This document shows, piece by piece, positions 34,284-48,289 of a DNA stretch of 64,000 bases. Location: assembly GCA_963765575.1 (NCBI GenBank), contig CAVXWZ010000011.1:704001-768000 (forward strand). Reading direction: 5' to 3'. The translations under genes were made by a program, and so were the position numbers. Each line of letters opens with the position of its first letter. Positions within the stretch are counted from its first letter, which is position 1. Under the pieces are notes generated by a model, which saw only the letters and a program-made list of their open reading frames with translations, was not told the origin of the DNA and did no database searches. The DNA is from an uncultured cyanobacterium (lineage in GTDB: Bacteria; Cyanobacteriota; Cyanobacteriia; PCC-6307; Cyanobiaceae).

Positions 34284-36341
34284 TCAGTGCAGCGGCTCGC
34301 TGATCACCAGGATCGGGCCGGCCAGCCGGCGTAGCAGTCGACTGGTGCGATCGCTGGCGGGAATCGGCAGTCCCGCCACCAGCCGGCGCTGGGAGCGCAG
34401 GATCACCAGGTCGTGGCTGCGGCTGGCCGCCACGATGGCGCTCTCCACGCCCTGGTGGCTCTGCAGCACCACCCGCAGTTGCACGGCGCTGGGTCGTGCT
34501 GGCCAGCGCTGCAGTTCCGCCTGCAGCTCCAGGCGCTCCTGCCGGCTCAGGCGCGGGTCATGCAGGTGGAGCAGGGTGATCGTGCCGCCCAGTGCCGTCG
34601 CCAGGCGGTGGGCCAGCTGGAACTGCTCGATCGCCCCGGCGGTGAGGTCCTTGATCGGCACCAGCAGGCTGCGCAGCTGGCTGGGCGGCCGGGGCAGGTG
34701 GGCCACCACCACCGGGCAGGGGGCCTGCCGGCAGGTGGCGTCCACCAGGTCGCCGAACAGCCAGCGCCCCAGGGGGCTGGGGGCGGTCAGGCCCATCAGC
34801 ACCAGGTCACTGGCCTGTTCCACTGCCACCAGGGCGATGCCGCCGGCCACGTCGGGATCCACCCGCAGCAAGCTGCGGCAGGGTGCCTGCCAGGGCTCGG
34901 TGATCGCCTCGGCGCGCTCCAGCAGGCCCCTGGCCTGGGCCAAGGCGCTGGCCAAAGCGGGCAAACTCTGACCTCCCACCTCCGCCTGTCGGGGGGAGAC
35001 CACCGCCAGGGGCAACACCTCCCCTGGCCGGTCGGCCTCACCACCCATCAGCAGGTGGGCCAGTTCCAGCAGGGGGGCTTCGGTGTCGGGATTCGACACC
35101 GGCACCAGCACCCGCAGAGCGCGGCAGGCCAGGGCTGCCTGGCCGCTGTCCGCCCCGCTCGGCCCGGTGGCCTTGGCCCGCCCCAGGCGGGGCATGGCCA
35201 CGGCGGTGAGGTAGGGGCCCAGGGTGGCGGTGATCACCATCATCGCCAGCACGCTGTTGAGCACCATCTCATCCAGCAGGCCGGCCTGGTAGGCCACGAA
35301 GGTGGCCGCCAAGGTGGCCGCCACCTGGGGAATCGACAGCGACCAGAGGGTGAGGATCTGGGGCCCGTTGTAGCCGGAGAGTCGGCCGGTGCCCCAGGCG
35401 GCCAGAAACTTGGCGGCCAGCAGCCCGATGATCAGCAGCAGGGCGAAGGGTGAGCCGATGAGGGTGCCGGCGAAGGTGGGCAGGTTGAGCAGCAGGCCCA
35501 GATCAATGAAGAAGATCGGGATGAACAGGGCGGCCCCCACGAAGATCACCTGCTCCTTCACCCGGCCTTCCGGCAGCACCCCGTTCACCGCCAGGCCGGC
35601 CAGGAAGGCGCCGATGATCTTTTCCACCCCGGCCAGCTCCGCTCCCATGGCGGCCAGGAACAGGGCCATCAGCACCGCCACGAACAGCCGGCTGTCGTTG
35701 TTGACGCTGCGCAGCACCAGGGGCTTGCCCAGGCGACGGATCAGCACCAGCACAAGCGCTCCGAACAGGCCCACGCGCAGGGGCAGAGCCACCAGCTCCG
35801 CCGCCGAGGACTGTCCCTGGTGCAGCCCCATGCACAGAGCCAGCAGCAGCAGCGCCGCCAGGTCGGTGAAGATCGTGCCGCCGATGGCGACCACCACCGA
35901 CTCCTCGCGCATCTCCCCATAGCTGCGCACGATCGGGTAGCCCAGGGGGGTGTGGGAGGAGAGCACCGAGCCCAGCAGCACGCTGCTCAGCAGGGAGTAA
36001 CCAAAGCCCAGCCCGAGCATCAACCCCACCAGCAGCGGCAGGGTGAAGGTGAGCAGCCCGAAGCGCAGGGAGCGCTGCCGGATGCGGGCGAATTCGGCCA
36101 GGTCGATCTCCAGACCGGCGATGAACAGCAGATACACCACGCCCACATCGGAGAGCAGACGCACCACCTCGCTCTCGGCCGTGATCCAGCCAAGGGTGTG
36201 GGGACCGATCAGGACCCCCGCCGCCAGCAGGCCCACCAGATCCGGCAGCCCCAGGCGCTGGATCATGGGTGGTACCAGCACACTCAGCCCCAACAGCAGC
36301 GCAAACACCGCCAGCGGGTTCTCGGCGAGAAAGGTGGACAA
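34284..36341 (-). CDS. Cation:proton antiporter with C-terminal USP-like domains
   Basis: LFIAGLEIDL, GGTIFTD, IIGAFLAGL, FIPIFF; soluble tail VLVPVSNP...DLVLMG. Confidence 0.9.
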   Translation of the reverse strand: MSTFLAENPLAVFALLLGLSVLVPPMIQRLGLPDLVGLLAAGVLIGPHTLGWITAESEVVRLLSDVGVVYLLFIAGLEIDLAEFARIRQRSLRFGLLTFTLPLLVGLMLGLGFGYSLLSSVLLGSVLSSHTPLGYPIVRSYGEMREESVVVAIGGTIFTDLAALLLLALCMGLHQGQSSAAELVALPLRVGLFGALVLVLIRRLGKPLVLRSVNNDSRLFVAVLMALFLAAMGAELAGVEKIIGAFLAGLAVNGVLPEGRVKEQVIFVGAALFIPIFFIDLGLLLNLPTFAGTLIGSPFALLLIIGLLAAKFLAAWGTGRLSGYNGPQILTLWSLSIPQVAATLAATFVAYQAGLLDEMVLNSVLAMMVITATLGPYLTAVAMPRLGRAKATGPSGADSGQAALACRALRVLVPVSNPDTEAPLLELAHLLMGGEADRPGEVLPLAVVSPRQAEVGGQSLPALASALAQARGLLERAEAITEPWQAPCRSLLRVDPDVAGGIALVAVEQASDLVLMGLTAPSPLGRWLFGDLVDATCRQAPCPVVVAHLPRPPSQLRSLLVPIKDLTAGAIEQFQLAHRLATALGGTITLLHLHDPRLSRQERLELQAELQRWPARPSAVQLRVVLQSHQGVESAIVAASRSHDLVILRSQRRLVAGLPIPASDRTSRLLRRLAGPILVISEPLH

Positions 36342-36416: not shown

Positions 36417-37073
36417 TCAGTGCCAGCCGGTCCAGCCGGCCAGGTGGGAGGCCGCGGTGGAGCGGGCCAGGGCCCGGGCCGAGGGAAGGGCCGGCTCCAG
36501 GCGGGCGGAGCTGAAGGGCGGCAGGGGCCGCCGACGCAGCCAGGAGCCCCAGCGAAATTCGTGGAAGGGGATCAACGGAGCCGGTTGCACCACCCCCTCC
36601 CGTTTGAGCTTCCACACCAGGCTGCGGTAGGGGTCGTCCTGGAGACCGAGCAGATTGCGGGGCAGCGCCTGGGCCGGCAGGGGGCCCAGCCCGCGGCCGT
36701 CAAAGAGGTAGAGCCAGCCGCGTCGTTGCAGCTCGGCCAGCACGGCACTGCGGTCGTCGGTGTCGAGCTGCAGGGCGATGTAGCCGAAGGCGGTGGCCTC
36801 GGGCATCAGCTCCAGCAGCCCCCGCAGCCGGTGGTGGCGGTCCACCATCCAGTGGGCACCATCGGCGCTGCGCACCAGGGGCACGGGTTTGTTGCCCAGG
36901 TAGGTGCGCCGCTCCCGGCTGTTCTCGATCCGGAAATCGGCCTGACGGCTGCGCACTTCCGCCAGCCCCACGCACAACTGGGTGGGCTGGAGCTCGGCGA
37001 TCGACACTTCCAGCAGGGGCTCCCCTTCGGGCGGCGGCGGCAGGGGCTGGAAGGGGGGAAGGCGTAGGGCCAT
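36417..37073 (-). CDS. ParB-like (ParBc_2 type) protein
   Basis: ELQPTQLCVG, VDRHH, DDPYRSL, PFHEFRWG. Confidence 0.78.
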   Translation of the reverse strand: MALRLPPFQPLPPPPEGEPLLEVSIAELQPTQLCVGLAEVRSRQADFRIENSRERRTYLGNKPVPLVRSADGAHWMVDRHHRLRGLLELMPEATAFGYIALQLDTDDRSAVLAELQRRGWLYLFDGRGLGPLPAQALPRNLLGLQDDPYRSLVWKLKREGVVQPAPLIPFHEFRWGSWLRRRPLPPFSSARLEPALPSARALARSTAASHLAGWTGWH

Positions 37074-37606
37074 GGATCCATCCTCGCTTGCCTGTCGTCC
37101 GGCCGCAGACGCCGTGGTGACAGGGCTGCAGCCCGCGGCCGCGGCTGCCGGTGGCTACGGCCAGACAGCACCTCATCATGTGCAGGACAACACCGCCTGG
37201 AGGCCGCGGCAGGGGTTGTCTGCCCATGGCGACTGGGGTCTCCCGGCCTGTCTCGCCGCGGCTGCGATGGGGCGGACAAGCCTTGGATCAGGTTTGCTGA
37301 TGGTTGCTCGGTTTCCCCATGTCGGCGCGGTTTTCCCCGGTTCCAAGAATGGTTTTCCACAGCCTGGTTGCTGTCCCCTGCGCTGGCGCCGGTGTCTCTG
37401 GGGAAAGCCAGCGGCTGGCCGCCGCTGCCTTGACAGCCCCCCGCCCCGCCTTTGGGGCCCAGCTGCCGCCCGTGGCACTGCCGCCGCAGGCCAGTGACTG
37501 CAACCAGTCTCAGCGATGACAGCGATGATCCCGCCGGTGGCGGGCGGCTTTGACGCGGCCCCCGCCGCTGTGGCGTAGTGGGGCTGACCAGCCGTGCAGA
37601 GCGCCC

Positions 37607-37816
37607 ATGTCCAAGGATTCCAACGAGGGGGCCATCAGCCTCGAGGCCGAGGTGCCCGAGGTGCTGTTCGACGGCATGCGCCAGTTCATCGAGCACCATC
37701 CCCAGTGGGATCAATACCGGCTGATCACCTCGGCGTTGGCCGGATTCCTGTTCCAGCACGGCTGCAAGGACGCCTGTGTTCAGCAGCACTACCTCAACGG
37801 GCTGTTCCTGCGTTGA
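37607..37816 (+). CDS. DUF2811 protein
   Basis: ISLEAEVPEVLFDGMRQFIEHHPQWDQYRLITSALAGFLFQHG. Confidence 0.85.
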   Translation: MSKDSNEGAISLEAEVPEVLFDGMRQFIEHHPQWDQYRLITSALAGFLFQHGCKDACVQQHYLNGLFLR

Positions 37817-37820
37817 AGGC

Positions 37821-37848
37821 AAAAAAAAGCGGGGGAGCCATCCCCCGC
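37821..37848 (-). terminator. Intrinsic terminator downstream of the GMC gene
   Basis: Minus strand GCGGGGGA-TGGC-TCCCCCGC followed by T8. Confidence 0.75.
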
Positions 37849-39659: not shown

Positions 39660-40919
39660 TCAGCCGCTGAGGCTGGCATCCAGGCGGATCAGGCTGTGCA
39701 GCAGCACGTTCACCCCCTGTTCGCACTGTTGGGGTGAGGTGAACTCAGCGGCCGAGTGGGACACGCCATCGCGGCTGGGCACGAAGATCATGCCCATGGC
39801 GGTGAGGCGGCCGAGCTCCTGGGCGTCGTGGCTGGCGCGGCTGGGCAGGTGGGTGTAGCTGAGGCCGAGATCGGCGCAGGCCTCGCTGATCACGTCCTGC
39901 ACCCTGGCGTCGGCGGGGCTGGGATCCACCACGAACTGGGGCGTGATGGCTATGCGGGTGCGGCGGGCCACGGCGATGGTCTCGATGCGCCGCTCCAGCT
40001 GGGCCTTCATGTGGTCGATTACGTCGTGGGAGAGATCGCGCATGTCGAGGGTGAACTCCACCCGGCCGGGCACGATGTTGGCGGCGTTGGGCCACACCGT
40101 GAGCTTGCCCACCGTGGCCACCGGATCACCGGGGTAGTGCAGGGCCATGTCCTCGATGGCCAGGATGATCTGGGCGGCGGCGGCGAGGGCGTCGCGGCGC
40201 ATCTCCATGGGGGTGGTGCCGGCATGGTTGGCCTGGCCGCTGACGCTGATGGTGTAGCGCTGCTGGCCCACCACCCCTTCCACCACCCCGATCTGCTTGC
40301 CCACCGCCTCCAGCACGCCACCCTGCTCCACGTGCAGTTCCAGGAAGGCGGCCATCCCCTGGCGGGTGCGGCGGGCGCTCTGGCGTTGGTTCCAATCGCC
40401 ACCGATGCTGGCCAGTCCCTCCTGGATCGGCACCCCGAGGCTGGTGGAGTAGCTGCTGGGGTCGTCGGATCCATGGCCGACCATCGATTTGCAGCCCACC
40501 ATCGTGCTCTCCTCATCGGCGAAGGCGATCACCTCGATGGGGTGCTGCAGGCGCAGCTCGTGCTCGGCCAGTACCCGCACCACCTCAATCCCCCCCAGCA
40601 CCCCCAGGGCACCGTCGTAGAGGCCACCCTCCGGCACCGTGTCGATGTGGGAGCCGGTGGCCAGCACCGGGGCCTCGGGCCTGAGGCCGTCGTAGCGGCC
40701 GATCAGGTTGCCCGCCGCATCGATGCGCACGGCCATGCCGGCCTCCTCCATCCAGCCCTGCACCAGGGCGCGCGCGGCCCGGTCCTCCTCGCTGAAGGCC
40801 AGTCGGCGCACGGCCCCGGACGGCAGCCGGCCGATCTGCCCCAGGTCCGAAAGGCTGCGCGCCAGGCGAGCGCCGTCGGCGGCCAGACCGGTGGGCGGGG
40901 CGGAGAGGAGCTGGCTCAT
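39660..40919 (-). CDS. Zn-dependent M20 amidohydrolase (N-carbamoyl-L-amino acid / allantoate amidohydrolase family)
   Basis: GSHIDTV, GLYDGALGV, DEE, ELHVEQG, GQANHAGTTPM, SHDAQ, SHSAAE. Confidence 0.92.
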   Translation of the reverse strand: MSQLLSAPPTGLAADGARLARSLSDLGQIGRLPSGAVRRLAFSEEDRAARALVQGWMEEAGMAVRIDAAGNLIGRYDGLRPEAPVLATGSHIDTVPEGGLYDGALGVLGGIEVVRVLAEHELRLQHPIEVIAFADEESTMVGCKSMVGHGSDDPSSYSTSLGVPIQEGLASIGGDWNQRQSARRTRQGMAAFLELHVEQGGVLEAVGKQIGVVEGVVGQQRYTISVSGQANHAGTTPMEMRRDALAAAAQIILAIEDMALHYPGDPVATVGKLTVWPNAANIVPGRVEFTLDMRDLSHDVIDHMKAQLERRIETIAVARRTRIAITPQFVVDPSPADARVQDVISEACADLGLSYTHLPSRASHDAQELGRLTAMGMIFVPSRDGVSHSAAEFTSPQQCEQGVNVLLHSLIRLDASLSG

Positions 40920-41100
40920 GGGCGGTGGCGGTTCGGTGCTGAAGGACTGGGCGTGGCCCTGGTGGGGGCGGTCGTCACCACTGGTGGTTTCCCGTCCCGT
41001 TGCGACAATGGTGTGCTCGGTGACAGCCGGGCGCCGCGTGGTGAACAATCATCAGCCCCATTCACTTTGAACGGCGGATCGCCCCGCTGCGCACACCGCG

Positions 41101-41841
41101 ATGACCTTCTCGATCGTGGCCTGGGATGCGTCCACCGGCATGACCGGTGTCGGAGTGGCAACCAAGCATCTGGCGGTGGGCTCACTCGTGCCCCATGCCC
41201 GTGCCGGCGTGGGGGCCGTGGCCACCCAGGCCAACACCAATCCCTACTTCGGTCCCTGGGCGCTGGATCGCCTTGAGCAACTGCAGCACCAGAGTCAGGG
41301 CGAGCAGGGGGCTGACGCGGTGCTCGAATCACTGCTGCGGGACGATCCGGGCCGCGATGGCCGCCAGGTCATGCTCGTGGATGGTCAGGGCCGCAGCGCC
41401 GCCTGGACCGGCGAGGGCTGCGCCGGCATCGCCGCCCATCGCTGCTATCCCGGCTTCGCGGTGGCGGGAAACTTTCTGGGTTCCGACCTGGTGCTGCTGG
41501 CGATGGCCGAGGCCTACATGGCCGCCGAGCGCCAGGGGCTGAGCCTGGAAGAGCGCCTGTTGCTGGCCCTCGAGGCCGGTGAGGCCCACGGCGGCGACCA
41601 CCGCGGCCGCCAGTCGGCAGCCCTGCTGGTGATGCACCAGGAGAGCTACCCCCACGGCGACTTCCGGGTGGACCATCACCCCGAGCCCCTGGTGGCCCTG
41701 CGCGAGATCCTCACCGAGACCGAGCGCGAGTACTACACCGGCTTCCGCGCCGGACTGCCCACCACCCTGGGCTTGGCTCAGCCCGCCACAGCTCACTCCC
41801 CCATGTCTCAGTCAACGGACGACATGCCGATCAGGGCGTAG
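41101..41841 (+). CDS. DUF1028 (Ntn-hydrolase-like) protein
   Basis: MTFSIVA, GVGAVATQA, AVAGN, GGDHRGRQSAAL, RVDHHPEP. Confidence 0.88.
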   Translation: MTFSIVAWDASTGMTGVGVATKHLAVGSLVPHARAGVGAVATQANTNPYFGPWALDRLEQLQHQSQGEQGADAVLESLLRDDPGRDGRQVMLVDGQGRSAAWTGEGCAGIAAHRCYPGFAVAGNFLGSDLVLLAMAEAYMAAERQGLSLEERLLLALEAGEAHGGDHRGRQSAALLVMHQESYPHGDFRVDHHPEPLVALREILTETEREYYTGFRAGLPTTLGLAQPATAHSPMSQSTDDMPIRA

Positions 41842-43877
41842 GCCGGCTTGGCCTGCTCCTCCCGGTGCAGGCGCCAGCCCAGGCGATCGGCCTGCTGCCG
41901 CGCCTGGGCCGGAAGATCGGCGGCGATGAACAGCTTGTGCATGATCTGCACGCAGATCAGGTGGTTGATCACCGCATCGAGCTGCACCCGCTGTGCCGCG
42001 CTGGTGTCGGGATGGTCGTGGCGCTCGAACAGGGCCTGCACCCCAGCTGAATCGAGCAGGCCGGCCTGCTCGATCGCTTTGGGATTGAGGTAGCGGTCGG
42101 CCAGGGTCTGCATGGCTGCCCGCTTCTGGGCATCGGCGTGGGCCGGGGGAGCCATGAACGCGAATTTCTCGCGCCGGTAGAGCACCTCCGGCAGCAGGCC
42201 ACGCATGGCTTCGCGCAGCACGTATTTCTCGGTCTTGCCCTTGATGCGCAGCTCCGGCGGCACCTGCACCGCCACCGCCGCCAGGTGGTGGTCGAGAAAG
42301 GCGGGGCGGGCTTCCATGGCATGGGCCATGTCGACGCGGTCGCCGCCCCAGGTGAGGATCTGGCCCTCCAGCATCGTCTTGATCCACACGTACTGGGCGC
42401 GATCAAGGGCGTGGCGCCCCTCCAGCTGGGATCGATCCAGGGTGGCAGCGATGGCGGCACCGGGGTCGTAGCCGGCGCAGGCGGCGCGGTGCTCCGGCGC
42501 CAGCAGATCGGGCACCAGCGGCGCGCAGGCCAGCCAGGGCTGCAGACAGCTGGGGGTGAAGCCCACCACCTGTTCCAGGGCGGGATCGTGCACCTGTTCC
42601 TCGGCCAGCATCGCCCCCTGCACCAGGGCATTGGCCTGTTGCAGCAACTGCTCCCACTCCTGCCGGTCGGCGGCGGGCAGGTCGCCCAGGCCGTGCAGGA
42701 ACATGTCGCGGCGGAAGGCGGGGTAGCCGCCGAACAGCTCGTCGGAACCCTCCCCCGTCATCACCACCTTGTAGTGGGCACGGTTGACCTCCCGGCTCAT
42801 CAGGAACTTGGCCACCGCCAGGGTGTTGTAGATGCTGCGCTCGGCATGCCAGATGGTGTCTTCCAGGTGGCCGTAGAGCTCATGGCCCGACAGCCGCATC
42901 ACCAGCTGCTGGGCACCCGTGGCCTCGGCCATCTCGGTGGCGATCGGCGTCTCGTCGTAGCGGGCGTCATCGAAGCCGATCGTGAACGCCTTCACCGGGT
43001 TCTGGCTGACCGCCGCCGCCAGCCCCAGGATCGAGCAGGAGTCGATGCCGCCGGACAGGTAGCAGCCCACCGGCACGTCGGCGACCATGCGCACCTCCAC
43101 CGCCTCCAGCAGGGCGGCGCGCACGGCCTCGATGTGGTGGGTTTCGCTGAGGCCGCCATCGCGCTCCCCCTGGCGGGGGAAGTCCACGTCCCAGTAGGTG
43201 CGGTCACTGATCTCGAAGTCGCCATCGCGCCGGCAGACCGTGAGCACGTGGCCAGGCATCAGCTGGTGCACCCCCTCGAAGGCCGTGCTGCCGGGTACCA
43301 CCGTCTGCATCAGCTGGTGGAACAGACCTTGGGAGCTGAAGCGCCGCTGCACGCCCGGGTGGGCAAACAGCACCTTGAGTTCGGAGCCGAACACCAGGCC
43401 CTCGTCGGTGAGGGCCCAGTACTGGGGTTTGACGCCGAAGCGGTCGCGCACCAGCACCAGGGAATCGCTGCGGCGATCGAACAGGGCGAAGGCGAATTCA
43501 CCGCGCAGCAGGGGCAGGGTGGCCTCCAGGCCGCGCTCCTGATAGAGCCGCAGCAGGATCTCCGAATCGCTCTTGCTGCTGAAGCGCACGCCGCGGGCGC
43601 TGAGGTCGGCGCGGATGCGCTGGAAGTCGTAGAACTCGCCGTTGTGGGCCATCAGCAGCTCGCCGTCCTCGGACACGAACGGTTGGCGGGCCCGGTTGGC
43701 GTCCAGGTCGATGATCGACAAGCGGGCATGGCAGAAGCCCACCCCTTGGCCACTGAGGCTGCGCACCCCGAAGCCGTCCGGGCCGCGGTGCACCTGGATC
43801 GCCGCCATGTTCACCAGCAGCTGCTCGTCGATCGGCTGCTCGCTCTGACGCTGGAAGATTCCGCCGATGCCGCACAT
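41808..43877 (-). CDS. Asparagine synthase-like glutamine amidotransferase (AsnB family)
   Basis: MCGI N-terminal Cys, HRGPDG, HARLSIID, HNGEFY, SGGIDS, TGEGSDELFGGY; true substrate uncertain. Confidence 0.9.
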   Translation of the reverse strand: MCGIGGIFQRQSEQPIDEQLLVNMAAIQVHRGPDGFGVRSLSGQGVGFCHARLSIIDLDANRARQPFVSEDGELLMAHNGEFYDFQRIRADLSARGVRFSSKSDSEILLRLYQERGLEATLPLLRGEFAFALFDRRSDSLVLVRDRFGVKPQYWALTDEGLVFGSELKVLFAHPGVQRRFSSQGLFHQLMQTVVPGSTAFEGVHQLMPGHVLTVCRRDGDFEISDRTYWDVDFPRQGERDGGLSETHHIEAVRAALLEAVEVRMVADVPVGCYLSGGIDSCSILGLAAAVSQNPVKAFTIGFDDARYDETPIATEMAEATGAQQLVMRLSGHELYGHLEDTIWHAERSIYNTLAVAKFLMSREVNRAHYKVVMTGEGSDELFGGYPAFRRDMFLHGLGDLPAADRQEWEQLLQQANALVQGAMLAEEQVHDPALEQVVGFTPSCLQPWLACAPLVPDLLAPEHRAACAGYDPGAAIAATLDRSQLEGRHALDRAQYVWIKTMLEGQILTWGGDRVDMAHAMEARPAFLDHHLAAVAVQVPPELRIKGKTEKYVLREAMRGLLPEVLYRREKFAFMAPPAHADAQKRAAMQTLADRYLNPKAIEQAGLLDSAGVQALFERHDHPDTSAAQRVQLDAVINHLICVQIMHKLFIAADLPAQARQQADRLGWRLHREEQAKPAYALIGMSSVD

Positions 43878-43932
43878 AGGCCTGGTTTTCTGGGGGGTCT
43901 GCTGGGTTCGGGTGGGCCGCTGGCTCGGCCGC

Positions 43933-45036
43933 TCAGATGATGTCCATCACCTGATCCATGCGCTCCACCATGCAGGTGAGCAGGGCCATGCGGATGAACA
44001 CCGCGCCGCGGGCCTGGGAGAAATACCAGTTGTGGGCGGTCTCATCCAGGCAGGTGCCCAGTTCGGGGCCGCGGGCCAGGGGGTGCAGCACGATGGCGTC
44101 CTGCCGGTAGGGCAGGTCGGCCGTGAGCTGGAAGCTGCGGCCGTGCACTTCATAGCTGTCACCCACCCAGGCGATGGCATTGATGTAGATCACATCCAAG
44201 TCGGGCACGGCGCCGTGCAGGTCGTCGCTGGTGCTCACCTTCAGTCCGGCCGCCTGCAGTTCCTCCAGCTGGCCCGGATCGAAGTAGCCGTCGAGGGGGG
44301 CGCTGCCGGGATCGTGGAACAGCACCAGTTCCTCCACCATCGCCGGGAACTGGGCCAGGATGCGCAGCAGCGAGCGCACCGTGCGCATGCGGCTGGGGAT
44401 GCCCACCACGCCGATGCGGATGCGCTGGGCGGCGGGCAGCTCCCGCTCCACCAGCTGGGGCCGCCACTTGAAGATCGTGTAGAGATCCGCCATCGCCTGG
44501 GTGGGATGCTCATCGATGCCGTTGCCGGCATTGATGATCGGGATCCGCAGTGACTGGGTCATCTCGTAGATGGCCTCGGCGTGGGTGTCACGCAGCACCA
44601 CACAGTCGCCGTAGTTGTTGAACATCTCGGCCACGTCGCGCAGGGTCTCCCCCTTGGCGATGCCGGTGGTGCTGCGGTCGGTGATCGTGATCGTGTCACC
44701 CCCCAGTCGGTGCCAGGCGCTGTCGAACGAGAGGCGCGTGCGGGTGCTGGGCTCGTAGAAGGCGTTGATCAGGATCTTGCCCCGCAGGGGGCTGTTGTGG
44801 CGCATGTAGCGCTCCGGATTGCTCTCGAACTTCGCCGCCAGGCGAAACAGCTGCAGCAGCGTCACCGCGCTGTATTGGCTGGTGGAGAGCACGTGTTGCT
44901 CGGTGAGCTCACGCAGGGCGTCGCTGTCTTCCCGGATGGCGCGCAGCAGGGCTTGGGGGTGGGCATTGCCGTAGACATCCGGACCCAGGCGGGTGAAGCG
45001 GATGCGGGGCTGGGAGGGCTGCGGGCTGGATGGCAT
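43933..45036 (-). CDS. Aspartate carbamoyltransferase-like protein with divergent acceptor site
   Basis: FYEPSTRTRLSF, KGETL, INAGNG, HPTQAMADL, HPLAR; the usual TRxQxER segment is replaced by YINAIAW; start uncertain. Confidence 0.85.
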   Translation of the reverse strand: MPSSPQPSQPRIRFTRLGPDVYGNAHPQALLRAIREDSDALRELTEQHVLSTSQYSAVTLLQLFRLAAKFESNPERYMRHNSPLRGKILINAFYEPSTRTRLSFDSAWHRLGGDTITITDRSTTGIAKGETLRDVAEMFNNYGDCVVLRDTHAEAIYEMTQSLRIPIINAGNGIDEHPTQAMADLYTIFKWRPQLVERELPAAQRIRIGVVGIPSRMRTVRSLLRILAQFPAMVEELVLFHDPGSAPLDGYFDPGQLEELQAAGLKVSTSDDLHGAVPDLDVIYINAIAWVGDSYEVHGRSFQLTADLPYRQDAIVLHPLARGPELGTCLDETAHNWYFSQARGAVFIRMALLTCMVERMDQVMDII

Positions 45037-45203
45037 GGGCAGGCGGTGGCCTCGGGGGCTGCTCACGGCGTCAACGCCGACGCCACAACCATCTGTAGGT
45101 GGCAGCACCTCAGCTGCCGGCAAGAACTTGCTTTTGTTCACCTAGTGACCCCTTGACGTGGGGTCATTCGGTAGCCGATCACACTGATGCGCTGGCGTGG
45201 CCG

Positions 45204-45371
45204 TCACCACACCTGGCCTTCGCGCCACTCCTTCAGCCAGATCAGCACAATCACCAGGGTGGCCAGCGCCAGGCCGATGATGCTGCCCACCACCAGCAGC
45301 CGGAACAGGGAGGCGGGCAGCAGCCACTCGGTGGCGGCTGGCGTGGCGGACGCTGTGCTGAGCAGGGGCAT
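45204..45371 (-). CDS. Small membrane protein (55 aa; below track cutoff)
   Basis: Hand translation MPLLSTASATPAATEWLLPASLFRLLVVGSIIGLALATLVIVLIWLKEWREGQVW*; one TM helix, GC-rich third codon positions. Confidence 0.65.
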   Translation of the reverse strand: MPLLSTASATPAATEWLLPASLFRLLVVGSIIGLALATLVIVLIWLKEWREGQVW

Positions 45372-45432
45372 GGCGGGCTGGCGCAGGGGGCTGGGGGCAA
45401 AGAAGACGGGGGGAGTGGTTGGCGGCCGGGGG

Positions 45433-46854
45433 TCAGCGGCCTGCGAGCAGGCGCCACTCGAACCGTTCCGGGTTCCAGTGGCTGCCCAGTCCCATCACCG
45501 CCGCCGACACCGCCGCCGACACCAGGGCGGCGCAGTAGGGGGCCACCAGCACATAGGCGAGCAGACCGGTGGTCGAGCCCAGCACCATGGCGGCGGTGGC
45601 CGCCTGGCGGTTGGCCTGGGGCCAGTAGAGCCCCATGGCGATCGGCCAGATGGTGGAGGCCACCAGGGCGCCGGTGAACAGCAGCAGCTGGTACATCGAG
45701 GTGAGGTACTGCCAGGAGAGCACCATCGTCAGCAGCCCCAGGCCCACCACCACCAGCCGTGCCGCCTGGCGGATCTGCCGGTCACTGATGCCGGGCATCA
45801 GCCAGTGGGCCACCACGTCTTCGGCGATCAGATCGGCGCTGGCGGCCAGCAGGGAATCGAGGGTGGAGGTGAGCGAGGCGAAGATGATGATGAACACCAC
45901 GATCGCGCCGCCACTGCCCAGCAGCTGGGCGGTGATCAGCGGAAAGACCATGTTCACCTGGGGCACCTCCAGGTTCTGGGCCAGGGCCATCAGGGCGATG
46001 GCGCCGGTGACGACCGGCACGGCCGTCCAGGCCAGGCCGCCGAGCACGAAGGAGCGGAACACCACCGTGGGCCGGCTGGCGAACACCCGACTCCACCAGA
46101 TGTTGTTGTGGAACACCTCACCCATGCTGAACAGGCCGGTGTTCCAGGCGAACAGCAGGCCGGTCGGAAGCAGCATGTTCAGCCGTGACGGGTGCTCGGC
46201 CGCCAGGGCGTCGTACACCTGATCCACGCTCATCTGGCTGTAGCCCAGCACCGCCACCAGCACCAGCAAGGCCATGATCAGCAACGACTGAATGAAGTCG
46301 GTGCCCACCACCCCGCGCATGCCGCCGAAGAGGGTGTAGATGGTCGACACCCCGATCACGCAGACCATGCCGAGGCGGTAGTCGAAACCGGAGAGGGCCT
46401 GCAGCAGCAGGCCGGCCCCCATCCCCTGGGTGATCAGGAAGCCGAGGGTGTAGGCCATGGTGATCAGCAGGAACACCGCCCAGCACAGCCGGCCGTAGCG
46501 CAGGCGCACGAAGTCGCCGCTGGTGCGGGCCGTGGGCATCAGCCGCTTGATGCGGACCGCCAGCGGGGCGAACAGGAACAGCCCCAGCCCCGCCAGGGCG
46601 TAGCCGAGCATGCCCCACAGGCCCAGGGTGTAGCCCACCTCCGGAGCGGCGAGGGTGGTGTTGCCGGTGACCCAGCTGGCCATCAAGGTGGCCGTGCTCA
46701 GGGCCAGGCCGATGTTGCGGCCGGCGAGCAGGTAGTCGTCGGCATCGCCCTTGCCGCGCCTGCCCCACCACACCCCCAGGGCGATCCAGAGCACTGAAAA
46801 GGCCACCAGCAGAAACCAGGCGATGCCGGCGTCGAGCAGCGGGGCGTCAGTCAT
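45433..46854 (-). CDS. Sodium:solute symporter family transporter (DUR3/PutP-like)
   Basis: DYLLAGRNIG, TLFGGMRGVVGTDFIQ, ASLTSTLDSLLAA; many TM helices. Confidence 0.92.
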   Translation of the reverse strand: MTDAPLLDAGIAWFLLVAFSVLWIALGVWWGRRGKGDADDYLLAGRNIGLALSTATLMASWVTGNTTLAAPEVGYTLGLWGMLGYALAGLGLFLFAPLAVRIKRLMPTARTSGDFVRLRYGRLCWAVFLLITMAYTLGFLITQGMGAGLLLQALSGFDYRLGMVCVIGVSTIYTLFGGMRGVVGTDFIQSLLIMALLVLVAVLGYSQMSVDQVYDALAAEHPSRLNMLLPTGLLFAWNTGLFSMGEVFHNNIWWSRVFASRPTVVFRSFVLGGLAWTAVPVVTGAIALMALAQNLEVPQVNMVFPLITAQLLGSGGAIVVFIIIFASLTSTLDSLLAASADLIAEDVVAHWLMPGISDRQIRQAARLVVVGLGLLTMVLSWQYLTSMYQLLLFTGALVASTIWPIAMGLYWPQANRQAATAAMVLGSTTGLLAYVLVAPYCAALVSAAVSAAVMGLGSHWNPERFEWRLLAGR

Positions 46855-46993
46855 GGCGGGGCGTGCCGATGGGGTCGTCGTAGGGATCGCGGCCGTGCCA
46901 GCGGGCATGGCCGCGGGCGATCATGATCACGGTGGCCAGGGTGACCACGGCGCCGATCGCGAAGATCAGCAGGGCCCGTTGCAGCTCGCTCAT
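46847..46993 (-). CDS. Small membrane protein overlapping the symporter start (48 aa; below track cutoff)
   Basis: Hand translation MSELQRALLIFAIGAVVTLATVIMIARGHARWHGRDPYDDPIGTPRHD*; 8-nt overlap (ATGACTGA) with the symporter. Confidence 0.68.
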   Translation of the reverse strand: MSELQRALLIFAIGAVVTLATVIMIARGHARWHGRDPYDDPIGTPRHD

Positions 46994-47120
46994 GCACGAC
47001 CACTAGCAGGGGGAGGGCGCCTGGGAGCCGTTCTGAAGCGGCCCGCAAGAAACCGGCGCCAATGGCAACCTCAATTCAGGCGGTCGCAAGCCGCCATGAA
47101 TGCGTCATGAACAGGAGCAC

Positions 47121-47157
47121 AAAAAAACCCCGGCAGCAGCGCTGTCGGGGTTTTTTT
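47121..47157. terminator. Bidirectional intrinsic terminator after tRNA-fMet
   Basis: A7-CCCCGGCAGC-loop-GCTGTCGGGG-T7. Confidence 0.88.
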
Positions 47158-47160
47158 CAT

Positions 47161-47237
<77 letters not shown>

Positions 47238-47295: not shown

Positions 47296-48267
47296 TCAGT
47301 CGAAGCGCAGCTCCCCGAGCACCTCCAGCTTCAGGTGGGGGGCCGGGCTCAGGAAGCGCTGGCGCAGCTCCTCGATGGTCATGGGGGTGAGCCAGTCGAG
47401 CTGCTCCAGCAGGTGCAGAGCCACCGCGTGCTTGGCCCGGGCGGAGCCGTCCTCCACCTTGATCGCCACCCCCATCCCCTCACCCACACGGCTGAGGCAC
47501 TGGATGCCCTCGGCGCCCCCCTTGCTGAGCACCTGGCCGTGGCCCCGGCGCATCAGCTCGGTGTCGAAGTGACCCTCGCCGGCCACCAGGTGGGGGTGGG
47601 CCAGCATTGCCCGGCTGAGGCGCTCCAGGTCGGGCTGCTCGCCGGCACCCAGGTGGGCGAACAGCAGGGCCATCTGGGCCAGGCGCAGGCGCAGGGTGGG
47701 CACGCCGCAGTCATCGCGGGCGGTGACCAGCTCGGCCGCCGGCAGGGCCAGGTATTCGCCCACCCGCTTCAGCAACTCCTGCTGCAGGGGGTGATCCCCC
47801 TGCATGTAGCTCTCGGTGCTCCAGCCCAGGCGGCGGCAGGTGGCCAGGAAGGCCGCGTGTTTGCCGGAGCAGTTGTGCTCCAGGGGGCTGGTCCGCCCCG
47901 CCGGCACCGGACATTGCAGCTGGTCAGCCTCGAGTTCGGCGCTCCAGAGCAGCTTGAAGGCCTCACGGGCGTGCTCCGGCGTGCCGGCATGGGAGGCACA
48001 GGCGATGGCCAGGCCGCGGTCGCCCACCTTGCCCTGGTCGGCGCTGCCACTGGCCACGAACACGGCCGCCTGGAACGGCTTCAGGGCCGAGCGCATGAAG
48101 CTCAGCTGCTGGGGGTCGCCGGCCCGCATCAGCACCCGGCCACGGGCGTCACTGACGGCCGCGTGCACCCGGTGGCGCGACTCGGTGATGCCCTCGCGCA
48201 GCAGGCGCACCTCCAGGGGCGGAATGTCGGTGCGGGTGGCGGCACCGAAGCTGGAGGAGAGGCTCAT
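47296..48267 (-). CDS. L-asparaginase II (Rhizobium-type) family protein
   Basis: RSALKPFQ, ACASHAG, HNCSGKH, DDCG, SKGGAEG, KVEDG. Confidence 0.88.
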   Translation of the reverse strand: MSLSSSFGAATRTDIPPLEVRLLREGITESRHRVHAAVSDARGRVLMRAGDPQQLSFMRSALKPFQAAVFVASGSADQGKVGDRGLAIACASHAGTPEHAREAFKLLWSAELEADQLQCPVPAGRTSPLEHNCSGKHAAFLATCRRLGWSTESYMQGDHPLQQELLKRVGEYLALPAAELVTARDDCGVPTLRLRLAQMALLFAHLGAGEQPDLERLSRAMLAHPHLVAGEGHFDTELMRRGHGQVLSKGGAEGIQCLSRVGEGMGVAIKVEDGSARAKHAVALHLLEQLDWLTPMTIEELRQRFLSPAPHLKLEVLGELRFD

Positions 48268-48289
48268 GGGCAAGGGCTGGGGCTGACGT

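What the first reader, a model, noticed from the sequence alone, without database searches (positions are those of the whole stretch)
39660..46993. Candidate make/import/recycle system for an N-carbamoyl amino-acid amide
Seen: a co-oriented run of 48-aa membrane ORF, SSS symporter, 55-aa membrane ORF, carbamoyltransferase-like gene and AsnB-like gene, followed by DUF1028 and an M20 N-carbamoyl-amino-acid hydrolase, all next to tRNA-fMet. Known: AsnB-family enzymes amidate carboxylates using Gln and ATP (AsnO does this for the osmolyte NAGGN); M20 HyuC-type enzymes remove N-carbamoyl groups; N-carbamoyl-L-glutamine 1-amide is a compatible solute described from Ectothiorhodospira. Inference: carbamoylation plus amidation makes such a compound (osmolyte or N store), DUF1028 and the M20 enzyme reverse the two steps, and the symporter recovers it. 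carB 3 kb away could supply carbamoyl phosphate. I know of no pathway assigned to this gene set.
Basis: partly seen in the sequence, partly recalled or inferred. Interest (0 to 1): 0.85.

Follow-up and report, generated by a model that had tools for sequence, protein, structure and literature searches.

The report
Conserved ureido-amide make, import, recycle island
A seven-gene island found in many marine and salt-lake bacteria probably builds, re-imports and breaks down a small nitrogen-rich carbamoylated, amidated amino acid; the gene block is already in print, but its product has never been measured.

Summary
Corrections: DUF1028 is on the opposite strand, an asparaginase II gene beside the tRNA was missed, and carB and the GMC oxidoreductase are chromosomal backbone.

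The carbamoyltransferase (CT) is a third paralogue beside true pyrB and argF. It keeps the carbamoyl-phosphate and alpha-carboxylate ligands but has lost the aspartate side-chain motif (RxQ to AIA).

In 80 related loci from cyanobacteria and other phyla:
- an AsnB-like gene follows CT in 78;
- the symporter precedes it in 76;
- an M20 carbamoylase is nearby in 60;
- DUF1028 occurs only in cyanobacterial-type loci (33).

Within this genus the seven genes are present or absent as one block just 3' of tRNA-Met. All 14 carriers have a ggpS match. Prochlorococcus-type loci carry the four enzymes without any symporter.

Best reading (about 0.55): make, re-import and recycle an N-carbamoyl amino-acid amide, possibly N-carbamoyl-glutamine amide. 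No product was measured. A published NMR study of a reported carrier found no such solute.

The block is already published as an untested "pseudo-ATCase" synteny block (2013) and as the asnB-pyrB2-pydC cluster (2023). This scan has also flagged it on other genomes. It is interesting but not new as an observation.

The parts
47161..47237 (-). tRNA-Met(CAU), initiator-like. This is a backbone gene whose 3' side is the insertion point of the island.
   Evidence: ARAGORN. The same tRNA sits between asparaginase II and the GMC oxidoreductase in 4 of 4 island-free genomes of the genus that were scanned.
46994..47160 (-). tRNA terminator hairpin and T-run, followed by a ~120-nt promoter/leader region of the transporter-biosynthesis operon.
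   Evidence: Sequence. An alignment of 10 relatives shows the terminator conserved and the rest variable. There is no GTA-N8-TAC box.
46847..46993 (-). 48-aa single-pass membrane protein, a likely accessory subunit of the symporter. It corresponds to the membrane anchor of a 114-235-aa bitopic protein that holds this position in the other phyla (a truncated 65-aa form in one locus).
   Evidence: Its stop overlaps the SSS start. Homologues were recovered in all 19 cyanobacterial loci from which the ORF was extracted. Profile-profile match to the anchor of the upstream proteins of the other phyla: probability 84%, E 7.7e-6, 28 columns.
45433..46908 (-). Sodium:solute symporter family transporter, 491 aa. 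Its nearest solved relative is the DUR3 urea symporter.
   Evidence: PF00474, 79 bits. It falls below every NCBIfam equivalog cut-off. PDB DUR3 9j7c, E 6.3e-34. It lies upstream of CT in 76 of 80 loci.
45204..45371 (-). 55-aa single-pass micro-protein with a C-terminal EWRxGxVW motif, predicted to bind the symporter.
   Evidence: Homologous 39-80-aa ORFs lie between the SSS and CT genes in cyanobacteria and other phyla. Complex model ipSAE 0.86 against a best control of 0.00.
43933..45036 (-). Carbamoyltransferase (CT) of the marine 'pseudo-ATCase' group, 367 aa from the ATG. It keeps the carbamoyl-phosphate site and the alpha-carboxylate Arg and has lost the aspartate beta-carboxylate ligands.
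   Evidence: It is a third paralogue beside pyrB and argF.
41808..43877 (-). Long (689-aa) glutamine-hydrolysing AsnB-type amidotransferase. Cys2 and the SGGIDS PP-loop are intact. It is the only full-length asparagine-synthase-family gene found in the genome.
   Evidence: It lies directly downstream of CT in 78 of 80 loci.
41101..41841 (+). DUF1028 Ntn-hydrolase-fold protein starting Met-Thr, a candidate amidase. It is on the opposite strand in this lineage.
   Evidence: PF06267, 221 bits. PDB 2imh, E 2e-25. Found in 33 of 80 loci, all of cyanobacterial type.
39660..40919 (-). M20 hydantoinase/carbamoylase-family amidase, a candidate N-carbamoyl-L-amino-acid hydrolase. The ORF is open up to 41048.
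   Evidence: TIGR01879, 423 bits against a cut-off of 204. ErtE model, 414 bits against 520. PDB 3n5f N-carbamoyl-L-amino acid hydrolase, E 3.7e-96. Start codon.

Best explanation
The seven genes from 39660 to 46993 form one flexible island. It encodes a self-contained cycle for a small ureido-amide compound.

Shown:
- The genes exist and are co-conserved across phyla.
- In this genus they are gained or lost as one block at a tRNA-Met site.

Inferred, step 1 (synthesis, carbamoylation): the pseudo-ATCase (CT) transfers a carbamoyl group from carbamoyl phosphate to the alpha-amino group of an endogenous amino acid. That amino acid has a free alpha-carboxylate and a non-acidic side chain. Glutamine or asparagine are the best guesses.

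Inferred, step 2 (synthesis, amidation): the AsnB-type enzyme uses ATP and glutamine to turn a carboxylate into an amide. It acts either on the carbamoylated product, which would give N-alpha-carbamoyl-glutamine 1-amide, or on aspartate beforehand, which would give N-carbamoyl-asparagine.

Inferred, step 3 (uptake): the DUR3-like symporter, with its two single-pass partners, takes the compound back up or takes it from the water.

Inferred, step 4 (breakdown): DUF1028 (amide hydrolysis) and the M20 enzyme (decarbamoylation) return the amino acid, ammonia and CO2.

Physiological role: a nitrogen-rich compatible solute and/or nitrogen reserve of salt-adapted bacteria.

My odds: compound class 0.55; within that, carbamoyl-glutamine amide about 0.3.
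For: 1. Linkage. An AsnB-like gene lies next to CT in 78 of 80 loci, and the 2 misses have 275 bases or fewer of DNA after CT. The SSS gene lies upstream in 76 of 80. M20 is in the locus in 60 of 80. DUF1028 is in 33 of 80, all of cyanobacterial type.

2. Block behaviour. Thirteen island-free genomes of the genus have asparaginase II and the GMC oxidoreductase directly adjacent, or have another insert between them. The tRNA-Met was confirmed between them in the 4 that were scanned. Carriers have exactly these seven genes between them.

3. CT is an extra enzyme. pyrB (354 bits, cut-off 263) and argF (404 bits, cut-off 306) lie elsewhere. CT scores 188 bits against the ATCase cut-off of 237.

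4. CT active site. Aligned to E. coli ATCase, the equivalents of STRTR, K84, R105, HPTQ and R167 are kept, while R229-x-Q231 is replaced by A-I-A.

5. The AsnB-like enzyme has Cys2 and the PP-loop, so it should be an active glutamine-dependent amidotransferase.

6. The nearest solved relatives fit the proposed chemistry. For M20 it is an L-N-carbamoylase (E 3.7e-96). For the SSS transporter it is a urea symporter.

7. Three Prochlorococcus-type loci carry CT, AsnB-like, M20 and DUF1028 with no symporter. None of the 3 such genomes searched has any PF00474 match, while a Synechococcus control has 2. So the synthetic enzymes do not depend on the importer.

8. Salt association. In the genus, all 14 carriers have a ggpS match (13 over the cut-off, 1 a fragment), against 1 of 15 non-carriers. 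In the family the four-way counts are 69 / 12 / 63 / 257. In one Prochlorococcus-type genome ggpS lies about 380 bp upstream of the cassette on the same strand; it was the only ggpS found in 51 genomes of that genus. In two Synechococcus loci the block lies between methyltransferase genes with an OpuAC-type ABC importer on one side and HAD and amylase-family genes on the other.

9. Complex model of symporter with micro-protein: ipSAE 0.86; best of 3 controls 0.00; partner pLDDT at least 75; runs share at least 78% of contacts. In the tool's calibration this mark was reached by 116 of 157 solved complexes and 2 of 215 mismatched pairs.
Against: - No metabolite was measured here or in any paper I found.
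- R. baltica, named by Barba et al. as a carrier of this CT group, was studied by 1H/13C NMR from 18 to 260% artificial seawater, with and without nitrogen. The authors reported sucrose, glutamate, trehalose and mannosylglucosylglycerate as the main solutes. The words 'amide', 'unknown' and 'unidentified' have 0 occurrences in the main text. I did not check that R. baltica has the whole block.
- This genome already has ggpS and a sucrose-phosphate synthase.
- A solute with four nitrogen atoms is an odd choice for the N-poor waters where Dore et al. find the cluster.
- In 11 of 24 marine cyanobacterial loci the block lies between molybdopterin/MFS genes and urease. That is a nitrogen-assimilation context, not an osmolyte one.
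- The ggpS association rests on only 2-3 independent events on a single-gene tree (sign test p 0.5). One clade lost the island while one of its members kept ggpS.
- Nine non-cyanobacterial loci with 8-10 kb flanks have no M20 gene. Among 16 non-cyanobacterial loci scanned, only 1 had a second amidase next to the block.
- The only characterised pseudo-ATCase, Rxyl_2847, works catabolically.
Confidence: 0.55

Rival explanations
1. Nitrogen scavenging. The symporter imports an exogenous ureido compound. M20 and DUF1028 release its ammonia. The pseudo-ATCase runs phosphorolytically, giving carbamoyl phosphate for pyrimidine or arginine synthesis. This is the 'alternative pyrimidine' idea of Dore et al.
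For: - In 11 of 24 marine cyanobacterial loci the block lies between nitrate-related genes (MoaA, MFS, MobA) and urease genes.
- Dore et al. 2023 place the cluster in warm, N- and P-poor waters and propose recycling of complex nitrogen forms (passages).
- The one characterised pseudo-ATCase, Rxyl_2847, is catabolic: allantoate + Pi gives ureidoglycine + carbamoyl phosphate (passages).
- The transporter's nearest solved relative is a urea symporter.
Against: - The partner most tightly linked to CT is an ATP- and glutamine-consuming amidotransferase (78 of 80 loci). It has no obvious catabolic role.
- Prochlorococcus-type cassettes have all four enzymes but no SSS-family transporter in 0 of 3 genomes searched. 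These genomes are incomplete.
- No GTA-N8-TAC (NtcA-type) box lies upstream in the window or in any of 27 cyanobacterial loci. Degenerate sites were not excluded.
Confidence: 0.2
2. The enzymes make another low-abundance product, such as a signal, an antimetabolite, or a cofactor or secondary-metabolite precursor carrying a ureido group. It is not a bulk solute or store.
For: - No bulk ureido solute was reported in the NMR study of R. baltica.
- The best PDB hit of the AsnB-like enzyme is a hydroxyamidotransferase (7ylz, E 1.7e-43), ahead of AsnB itself.
- OTCase-family enzymes that carbamoylate diamino acids occur in antibiotic pathways (review PMC4581275, passages).
Against: - No NRPS, PKS or tailoring genes are linked in the loci whose flanks were scanned.
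- The block is found at 468 places in a collection with one genome per species. CT is 59-97% identical to the query across the 80 loci kept, which fits primary rather than secondary metabolism.
- Dedicated breakdown enzymes and an importer fit a compound that is held and reused.
Confidence: 0.15
3. Nothing special: an ordinary pyrB and asnB that make carbamoyl-aspartate and asparagine and happen to lie together.
For: - Public records name CT 'aspartate carbamoyltransferase'.
- The AsnB-like protein passes the broad TIGR01536 model (416 bits, cut-off 267).
- It is the only full-length asparagine-synthase-family gene found in the genome.
Against: - The RxQ aspartate motif is replaced by AIA in the family.
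- CT falls below both ATCase equivalog cut-offs.
- A canonical pyrB is present.
- The genes are accessory: 81 of 401 genomes of the family carry CT, and they move as one island with a transporter and hydrolases.
Confidence: 0.03

Closest known systems
Marine 'pseudo-ATCase' synteny block (Barba, Dutoit, Legrain & Labedan 2013, BMC Syst Biol 7:99, PMC4016543; passages read)
   Same: - The same CT family. The HPLA motif and the AIA / AIS / SIA replacement of RxQ given in their Table 1 are seen in alignment A1.
- The same neighbours: a Na+ symporter on one side, an asparagine-synthase-type gene on the other (they call it 'asparaginase'), and usually a HyuC-like amidohydrolase.
- Their carriers include Synechococcus WH 8102, Nitrosococcus oceani, Kangiella and Rhodopirellula.
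   Different: - They proposed no function for this subgroup.
- They did not describe the two small membrane proteins, DUF1028, the island behaviour or any link to salt adaptation.
- Their table numbers this motif set 'pseudo-ATCase 1', while the text calls the marine group 'Subgroup 3'.
[quoted passage not shown] 2023, ISME J, PMC10119275; passages read; supplements not read)
   Same: The same three enzyme genes in Synechococcus and Prochlorococcus. The distribution is patchy, as in my sample (81 of 401 genomes).
   Different: They suggest an alternative pyrimidine biosynthesis and nitrogen recycling. The loss of the aspartate ligands in CT argues against carbamoyl-aspartate synthesis. This window is a high-GC Cyanobium-type genome outside their marine set.
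NAGGN (N-acetylglutaminylglutamine amide) osmolyte system, asnO-ngg (recalled; NCBIfam TIGR03104 is the AsnO model)
   Same: An AsnB-type glutamine-dependent amidotransferase would cap a carboxylate of an N-blocked glutamine derivative, giving an uncharged solute. A MarR-type regulator lies upstream of one non-cyanobacterial locus (L039).
   Different: The N-cap would be carbamoyl, added by an ATCase-family enzyme, rather than acetyl added by Ngg. The AsnB-like protein scores 315 bits against the AsnO cut-off of 570, so it is not AsnO.
Ureidoglycine carbamoyltransferase Rxyl_2847 of Rubrobacter xylanophilus, the only characterised pseudo-ATCase (Barba et al. 2013; review PMC4581275)
   Same: [quoted passage not shown] They keep STRT and HPTQ but lack RxQ.
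   Different: A different subgroup: its motif is H(T/S)LP rather than HPLA. Its neighbours are purine-catabolism genes and a carbamate kinase, and it works catabolically.
Hydantoin-utilisation L-N-carbamoylase (HyuC type; PDB 3n5f)
   Same: The M20 protein aligns over its full length at E 3.7e-96 and passes the hydantoinase/carbamoylase family model.
   Different: No hydantoinase or racemase lies in the island. A fused hydantoinase A/B gene is adjacent in only 2 of 24 marine cyanobacterial loci (L027, L029).

Membership tests
Aspartate carbamoyltransferase (PyrB, EC 2.1.3.2) | Score above the NCBIfam equivalog cut-offs (TIGR00670, NF002032) | tested here: not met
   188.2 bits against 236.95, and 183.4 against 263. 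The genome's real pyrB scores 282.5 and 354.
Aspartate carbamoyltransferase (PyrB, EC 2.1.3.2) | RxQ motif (E. coli R229, Q231) that binds the aspartate beta-carboxylate | tested here: not met
   It aligns to A287-I288-A289. No R or Q occupies these columns in any of the 13 family members aligned.
Aspartate carbamoyltransferase (PyrB, EC 2.1.3.2) | Carbamoyl-phosphate site (STRTR, R105, HPTQ) and alpha-carboxylate Arg (R167) | tested here: met
   S97-T-R-T-R101, R149, H177-P-T-Q180 and R218 are invariant in A1 and align to the E. coli residues.
Marine pseudo-ATCase group (Barba et al. 2013) | HPLA in place of HPLP, and AIA/AIS/SIA in place of RxQ | tested here: met
   H318-P-L-A321 is invariant. 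Columns 287-289 read AIA, with SIA, AIS and AIV variants. Motifs are taken from their Table 1.
Marine pseudo-ATCase group (Barba et al. 2013) | Synteny with a Na+ symporter and an asparagine-synthase-type gene, usually with a HyuC-like amidohydrolase | tested here: met
   Present in the window. Found in 76, 78 and 60 of 80 loci respectively.
Asparagine synthase B (glutamine-hydrolysing) | N-terminal Cys nucleophile, SGGxDS PP-loop, and a score above the TIGR01536 cut-off | tested here: met
   The protein begins MCGIGG and contains SGGIDS. It scores 416.3 bits against 267.1.
Asparagine synthase B (glutamine-hydrolysing) | Aspartate is the acyl substrate | not testable with these tools
   E. coli-type AsnB model NF006949: 266 bits against 499. 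The region between residues 390 and 517 does not align to E. coli AsnB. Substrate specificity needs an assay.
NAGGN amidotransferase AsnO (TIGR03104) | Score above the equivalog cut-off, and an adjacent ngg gene | tested here: not met
   314.7 bits against 570.1. No ngg-type gene lies in the island.
Hydantoinase/carbamoylase-family amidase (M20, TIGR01879) | Score above the family cut-off and a full-length match to solved L-N-carbamoylases | tested here: met
   422.8 bits against 204. PDB 3n5f, E 3.7e-96, over residues 58-456. The substrate was not tested. The ErtE N-carbamyl-L-glutamate model scores 413.7 against 520, which is not met.
DUF1028 (PF06267), Ntn-hydrolase fold | Pfam score above the cut-off and an N-terminal Thr after the initiator Met | tested here: met
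   221 bits against 26.2. The protein begins MTFSIVA and aligns from residue 1 to PDB 2imh. The role of the Thr as nucleophile is recalled for the fold and was not tested.
DUR3-type urea symporters (SSS family) | Closest solved relative is DUR3, and urea is the substrate | tested here: inconclusive
   DUR3 is the best PDB hit (E 6.3e-34), but the best stretch covers only residues 241-454. No NCBIfam equivalog cut-off is reached. The substrate is unknown.

The most novel reading that the evidence does not exclude
[quoted passage not shown] This compatible solute has been known since 1991 from Ectothiorhodospira marismortui, and no paper I could find assigns genes to it. If so, this solute or a close ureido-amide relative would be an overlooked nitrogen-rich solute or nitrogen reserve in hundreds of marine and salt-lake species, including Synechococcus and some Prochlorococcus. 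It would have its own three-part DUR3-like importer.
Probability: 0.28. Interest if true: 0.8.

Novelty: new variant of a known kind. Interest (0 to 1): 0.6.

Why it matters
If the reading holds, it would do four things:
- give genes to an orphan osmolyte;
- define a new substrate class for the ATCase/OTCase family;
- assign a first function to DUF1028;
- add a nitrogen-rich solute or store to the metabolism of globally abundant picocyanobacteria.

That last point bears on marine nitrogen budgets and dissolved organic nitrogen.

The test is cheap: two genes in E. coli plus LC-MS/NMR.

If the reading fails, the block is still one of the more widespread conserved enzyme-transporter cassettes with no tested function. 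It was found at 468 places in a collection with one genome per species.

Tried and rejected
1. carB as part of the system: rejected. carB, DUF3318, CGLD27, asparaginase II, tRNA-Met, the GMC oxidoreductase, the ParB-like gene and the Na+/H+ exchanger keep the same order in 4 island-free genomes.

2. GMC oxidoreductase as an operon member (its start overlaps the M20 stop by 20 nt): rejected. It is present in all 13 island-free genomes examined.

3. Asparaginase II as the missing amidase: rejected as island-linked. It is present in 29 of 29 genomes of the genus, with or without the island.

4. NtcA control: no GTA-N8-TAC box in the 450 nt upstream of the first gene, in the window or in any of 27 cyanobacterial loci. 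Only two loose GT-N10-AC matches were found, both far upstream. Degenerate sites are not excluded.

5. Looking for the cluster in Ectothiorhodospira by name. The 120 best relatives of a Sedimenticola CT and of the window's CT list no Ectothiorhodospira. These are the top 120 of 1419 and of 7238 matches, so this says nothing about absence. I could not test that.

6. A second, non-homologous amidase in other phyla. Flanks of 16 non-cyanobacterial loci show one amidase-signature gene (L045) and one DJ-1/PfpI gene (L044). There is no recurrent partner.

7. Expression: no RNA holder was listed for the stretch. No reads were laid.

8. Salt or nitrogen transcriptome papers that mention these genes: 0 papers held the term sets.

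9. Substrate of the AsnB-like enzyme from sequence: the acyl-substrate region does not align to solved AsnB, so no inference was drawn.

10. Deletion scars. Short M20 3'-end remnants lie next to the GMC gene in L093, L096 and L104, seen as a nucleotide match and weak tblastn hits (E 0.41-1.4). L099 has weak M20 fragments (E 0.004). This suggests loss by deletion in one clade but is weak on its own.

Full report
**1. What is in the window**

The window is part of a 2.7-Mb, roughly 69% G+C picocyanobacterial genome. Its nearest named relatives are Cyanobium-type records.

On the minus strand lie:
- a 48-aa membrane ORF (46847-46993), whose stop overlaps the start of the next gene in an ATGA;
- a sodium:solute symporter (45433-46908);
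- a 55-aa membrane ORF (45204-45371);
- a carbamoyltransferase, called CT below (ATG at 45036, stop at 43933, 367 aa);
- a 689-aa AsnB-type amidotransferase (41808-43877);
- further on, an M20 hydantoinase/carbamoylase-family amidase (39660 to a likely ATG at 40919).

DUF1028 (41101-41841) is on the plus strand. It converges on the AsnB-like gene and diverges from M20.

The tRNA-Met at 47161-47237 has a C1/C72 mismatch and three G-C pairs at the foot of the anticodon stem. From recall, these mark an initiator tRNA.

**2. The carbamoyltransferase is an extra, non-aspartate enzyme**

The genome holds three PF02729 genes. Two are canonical:
- pyrB: NF002032, 354 bits against a cut-off of 263;
- argF: NF001986, 404 bits against 306.

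The CT of the island scores below both ATCase cut-offs: 188 against 237, and 183 against 263.

I aligned it with E. coli ATCase and with 12 relatives from four named genera of cyanobacteria and seven of Gammaproteobacteria. It keeps STRTR, the equivalents of K84 and R105, HPTQ, and the Arg that holds the alpha-carboxylate (R167 equivalent, R218). The R229-x-Q231 pair that holds the aspartate side chain is replaced by A-I-A, and HPLP is replaced by HPLA.

These are the motifs that Barba et al. 2013 list for their 'pseudo-ATCases'. The inference is that the second substrate is an alpha-amino acid with a free carboxylate and a non-acidic side chain.

The AsnB-like protein keeps Cys2 and the SGGIDS loop. 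It is the only full-length asparagine-synthase-family gene found in the genome.

**3. Co-conservation**

A scan of one genome per species found 468 places that encode a CT relative. The best 80 were kept. By tblastn with the window's proteins:

| Gene | Position relative to CT | Loci out of 80 | Notes on the misses |
|---|---|---|---|
| AsnB-like | directly downstream, same strand | 78 | the 2 misses have 0 and 275 bases of DNA after CT |
| Symporter | directly upstream | 76 | 3 Prochlorococcus-type loci, and 1 locus with 98 bases upstream |
| M20 | anywhere in the locus | 60 | 11 of the 20 misses have under 3.2 kb downstream; 9, mostly Idiomarinaceae, have 8-10 kb flanks and no M20 |
| DUF1028 | anywhere in the locus | 33 | all 33 are of cyanobacterial type |

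One of the 33 DUF1028 loci, L036, is labelled Gammaproteobacteria but has Synechococcus-like content.

CT is 59-97% identical to the query across the 80 loci kept, which span several phyla.

**4. A three-part transporter**

In the other phyla an ORF of about 39-55 aa lies between the symporter and CT. It ends in DWK-x-x-x-LW. The window's 55-aa protein ends in EWREGQVW. Twelve further cyanobacterial loci have the same kind of protein, 47-80 aa long.

A complex model of the symporter with this micro-protein gave ipSAE 0.86. The best of 3 controls gave 0.00. The partner's pLDDT was at least 75, and the runs shared at least 78% of contacts. In the tool's calibration this mark was reached by 116 of 157 solved complexes and 2 of 215 mismatched pairs. 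This supports binding but does not show it.

The 48-aa protein matches the C-terminal membrane anchor of a 114-235-aa signal-peptide-bearing protein (truncated to 65 aa in one locus) that holds the same position in the other phyla (profile-profile probability 84%, E 7.7e-6, 28 columns).

The symporter's nearest solved relative is the DUR3 urea symporter (E 6.3e-34).

**5. The seven genes are one flexible island**

CT is found in 81 of 401 genomes sampled from the family. In the genus it is found in 14 of 29, counting this genome.

In 13 island-free genomes of the genus, asparagine II and the GMC oxidoreductase are neighbours (the tRNA-Met was confirmed between them in the 4 scanned). They lie 220-380 bp apart in nine genomes. 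In four, a different insert of 2.3-3.9 kb lies between them. That insert holds a periplasmic-binding-protein gene (Pfam match in one of the two scanned) and a histidine-kinase gene in both scanned.

Carriers have exactly M20, DUF1028, AsnB-like, CT, the micro-protein, the symporter and the 48-aa protein in that gap.

Three island-free genomes form a well-supported clade nested among carriers. They keep a short remnant of the M20 3' end next to the GMC gene. This points to loss by deletion there. On a tree of the flanking asparaginase gene the island needs at least 3 changes of state, and at least 2 on well-supported branches.

**6. Tests that bear on function**

(a) Four enzymes without the importer. 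Prochlorococcus-type loci L083, L085 and L092 carry CT, AsnB-like, M20 and DUF1028 as a tight co-directional unit. Upstream lie transhydrogenase and alpha/beta-hydrolase genes (L083 and L085) or ggpS (L092). None of the 3 such genomes searched has any PF00474 match, while a Synechococcus control has two. These genomes are incomplete (1.2-1.5 Mb assembled). The enzymes therefore seem able to work without the importer. That favours an endogenous make-and-break cycle over pure scavenging.

(b) Salt association in the genus. All 14 carriers have a glucosylglycerol-phosphate synthase match. Thirteen score over the cut-off and one is a contig-end fragment. Only 1 of 15 non-carriers has one.

(c) Salt association in the family sample of 401 genomes:

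| | ggpS present | ggpS absent |
|---|---|---|
| CT present | 69 | 12 |
| CT absent | 63 | 257 |

Seven of the 12 carriers without ggpS belong to the Prochlorococcus-like genus.

(d) Limits of that association. Kin are not independent. On the tree only 2-3 independent contrasts exist. ggpS never goes the opposite way, but the sign test gives p 0.5. One clade lost the island while one of its members kept ggpS.

(e) Physical linkage to ggpS. In one complete 1.66-Mb Prochlorococcus-like genome, ggpS lies about 380 bp upstream of the cassette on the same strand. It was the only ggpS match among 51 genomes of that genus.

(f) Contexts in marine cyanobacterial loci (24 loci):
- 11 loci lie between MoaA/MFS/MobA genes and urease genes, a nitrogen-assimilation neighbourhood.
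- 2 loci lie between two methyltransferase genes with an OpuAC-type ABC importer on one side and HAD and amylase-family genes on the other, an osmolyte neighbourhood.
- 2 loci lie next to a fused hydantoinase A/B gene.

(g) Regulation. No NtcA-type GTA-N8-TAC box lies upstream in the window or in any of 27 loci.

(h) Other osmolyte genes. This genome already has ggpS (737 bits) and a sucrose-phosphate synthase (686 bits).

**7. Evidence against a bulk-osmolyte role**

Barba et al. name Rhodopirellula baltica as a carrier of this CT group. An 800-MHz 1H/13C NMR study examined its solutes from 18 to 260% artificial seawater, with and without nitrogen. [quoted passage not shown] The words 'amide', 'unknown' and 'unidentified' do not occur in the main text (PMC3694870, passages). 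I did not verify that R. baltica has the full block.

Dore et al. find the cluster mainly in warm, nitrogen- and phosphorus-poor waters, and in Red Sea Prochlorococcus. That fits nitrogen economy at least as well as salt.

**8. What is known**

- The gene block is in print as an untested synteny block (Barba et al. 2013).
- It is also in print as the asnB-pyrB2-pydC cluster, proposed to serve alternative pyrimidine synthesis (Dore et al. 2023; supplements not read).
[quoted passage not shown] It is also noted for other purple sulfur bacteria (PMC7824335, passages).
- No paper in the held library links genes to that solute.
- 'Pseudo-ATCase' occurs in one paper only.

This scan has met the same cassette on other genomes (look-alike stretches in 12 windows of 12 genomes; more), and earlier agents reached the same reading. 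Those notes gave me the two papers, which I then read myself. One note says the cluster is in the producer of carbamoyl-glutamine amide. I could not test that.

**9. Verdict**

The make / import / recycle reading is the best-supported one (about 0.55). The specific compound (about 0.3) and the osmolyte-versus-nitrogen-store question stay open.

- the exact island boundaries at the tRNA-Met site;
- the backbone status of carB, the GMC oxidoreductase and asparaginase II;
- the importer-free four-enzyme cassette;
- the ggpS co-distribution and the one case of physical linkage;
- support for the micro-protein as a transporter subunit;
- the NMR counter-evidence.

Noticed in passing
window 47296-48273 (-): An L-asparaginase II family gene (PF06089, 363 bits) lies between tRNA-Met and CGLD27. 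It is core in the genus (29 of 29 genomes) and not linked to the island.
   Followed up: yes
L098:950-4640, L099:950-4900 (also gaps in L094 and L101): In 4 of 13 island-free genomes the same tRNA-Met site holds a different 2.3-3.9-kb insert. In the two scanned it holds a histidine-kinase gene preceded by a ~380-aa ORF, which matches a periplasmic-binding-protein family in L099 only. The site is therefore a hot spot for variable cargo.
   Followed up: partly
L092:9867-16926 (G379): A complete 1.66-Mb, 33.5% G+C Prochlorococcus-like genome has ggpS about 380 bp upstream of the CT, AsnB-like, M20, DUF1028 cassette on the same strand. The surrounding region holds ligase and protease gene fragments. 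It was the only ggpS match among 51 genomes of that genus.
   Followed up: partly
L093, L096, L104 (between tRNA-Met and the GMC gene); window 39660-39720: Three island-free genomes that form one clade keep a 25-55-nt remnant of the M20 3' end next to the GMC oxidoreductase start. This looks like a deletion scar. In the window the M20 stop overlaps the GMC start by 20 nt.
   Followed up: partly
window 34284-36341 (-): A Na+/H+ exchanger fused to a universal-stress-protein domain (685 aa). It is backbone in both carriers and non-carriers.
   Followed up: no
window 36417-37073 (-) and 36806-37822 (-): A ParB-like nuclease domain gene (PF08857, 146 bits) overlaps a 338-aa ORF that has no family match. 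The 338-aa ORF is only 39-61% conserved among close relatives, so one of the two frames may not be a gene.
   Followed up: no
L020:7175-7981 and 6 other marine Synechococcus loci: A class-I glutamine-amidotransferase / peptidase C26-like gene (268 aa) lies between DUF1028 and the urease genes in 7 loci. It could be a further amide hydrolase of the pathway, or it could belong to the urease region.
   Followed up: no
L027:15748-19419, L029:8917-10272: A fused hydantoinase A/B (oxoprolinase-type) gene of 1223 aa lies next to the cassette in two Synechococcus loci.
   Followed up: no
L036: A contig filed under a Gammaproteobacteria MAG carries a Synechococcus-type cassette: the 48-aa gene, DUF1028, and a CT 72% identical to the window's. 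It is probably a binning error.
   Followed up: no
L039:7242-7778: A MarR-family regulator lies directly upstream of the cassette in an Aliikangiella genome, and carB lies about 5 kb upstream in the same locus. This was seen in 1 of 16 non-cyanobacterial loci scanned.
   Followed up: no
window 47075-47097 (-): A direct repeat, TTCATG-N5-TTCATG, lies just after the tRNA terminator in the operon's upstream region. It is not conserved in 9 relatives.
   Followed up: partly
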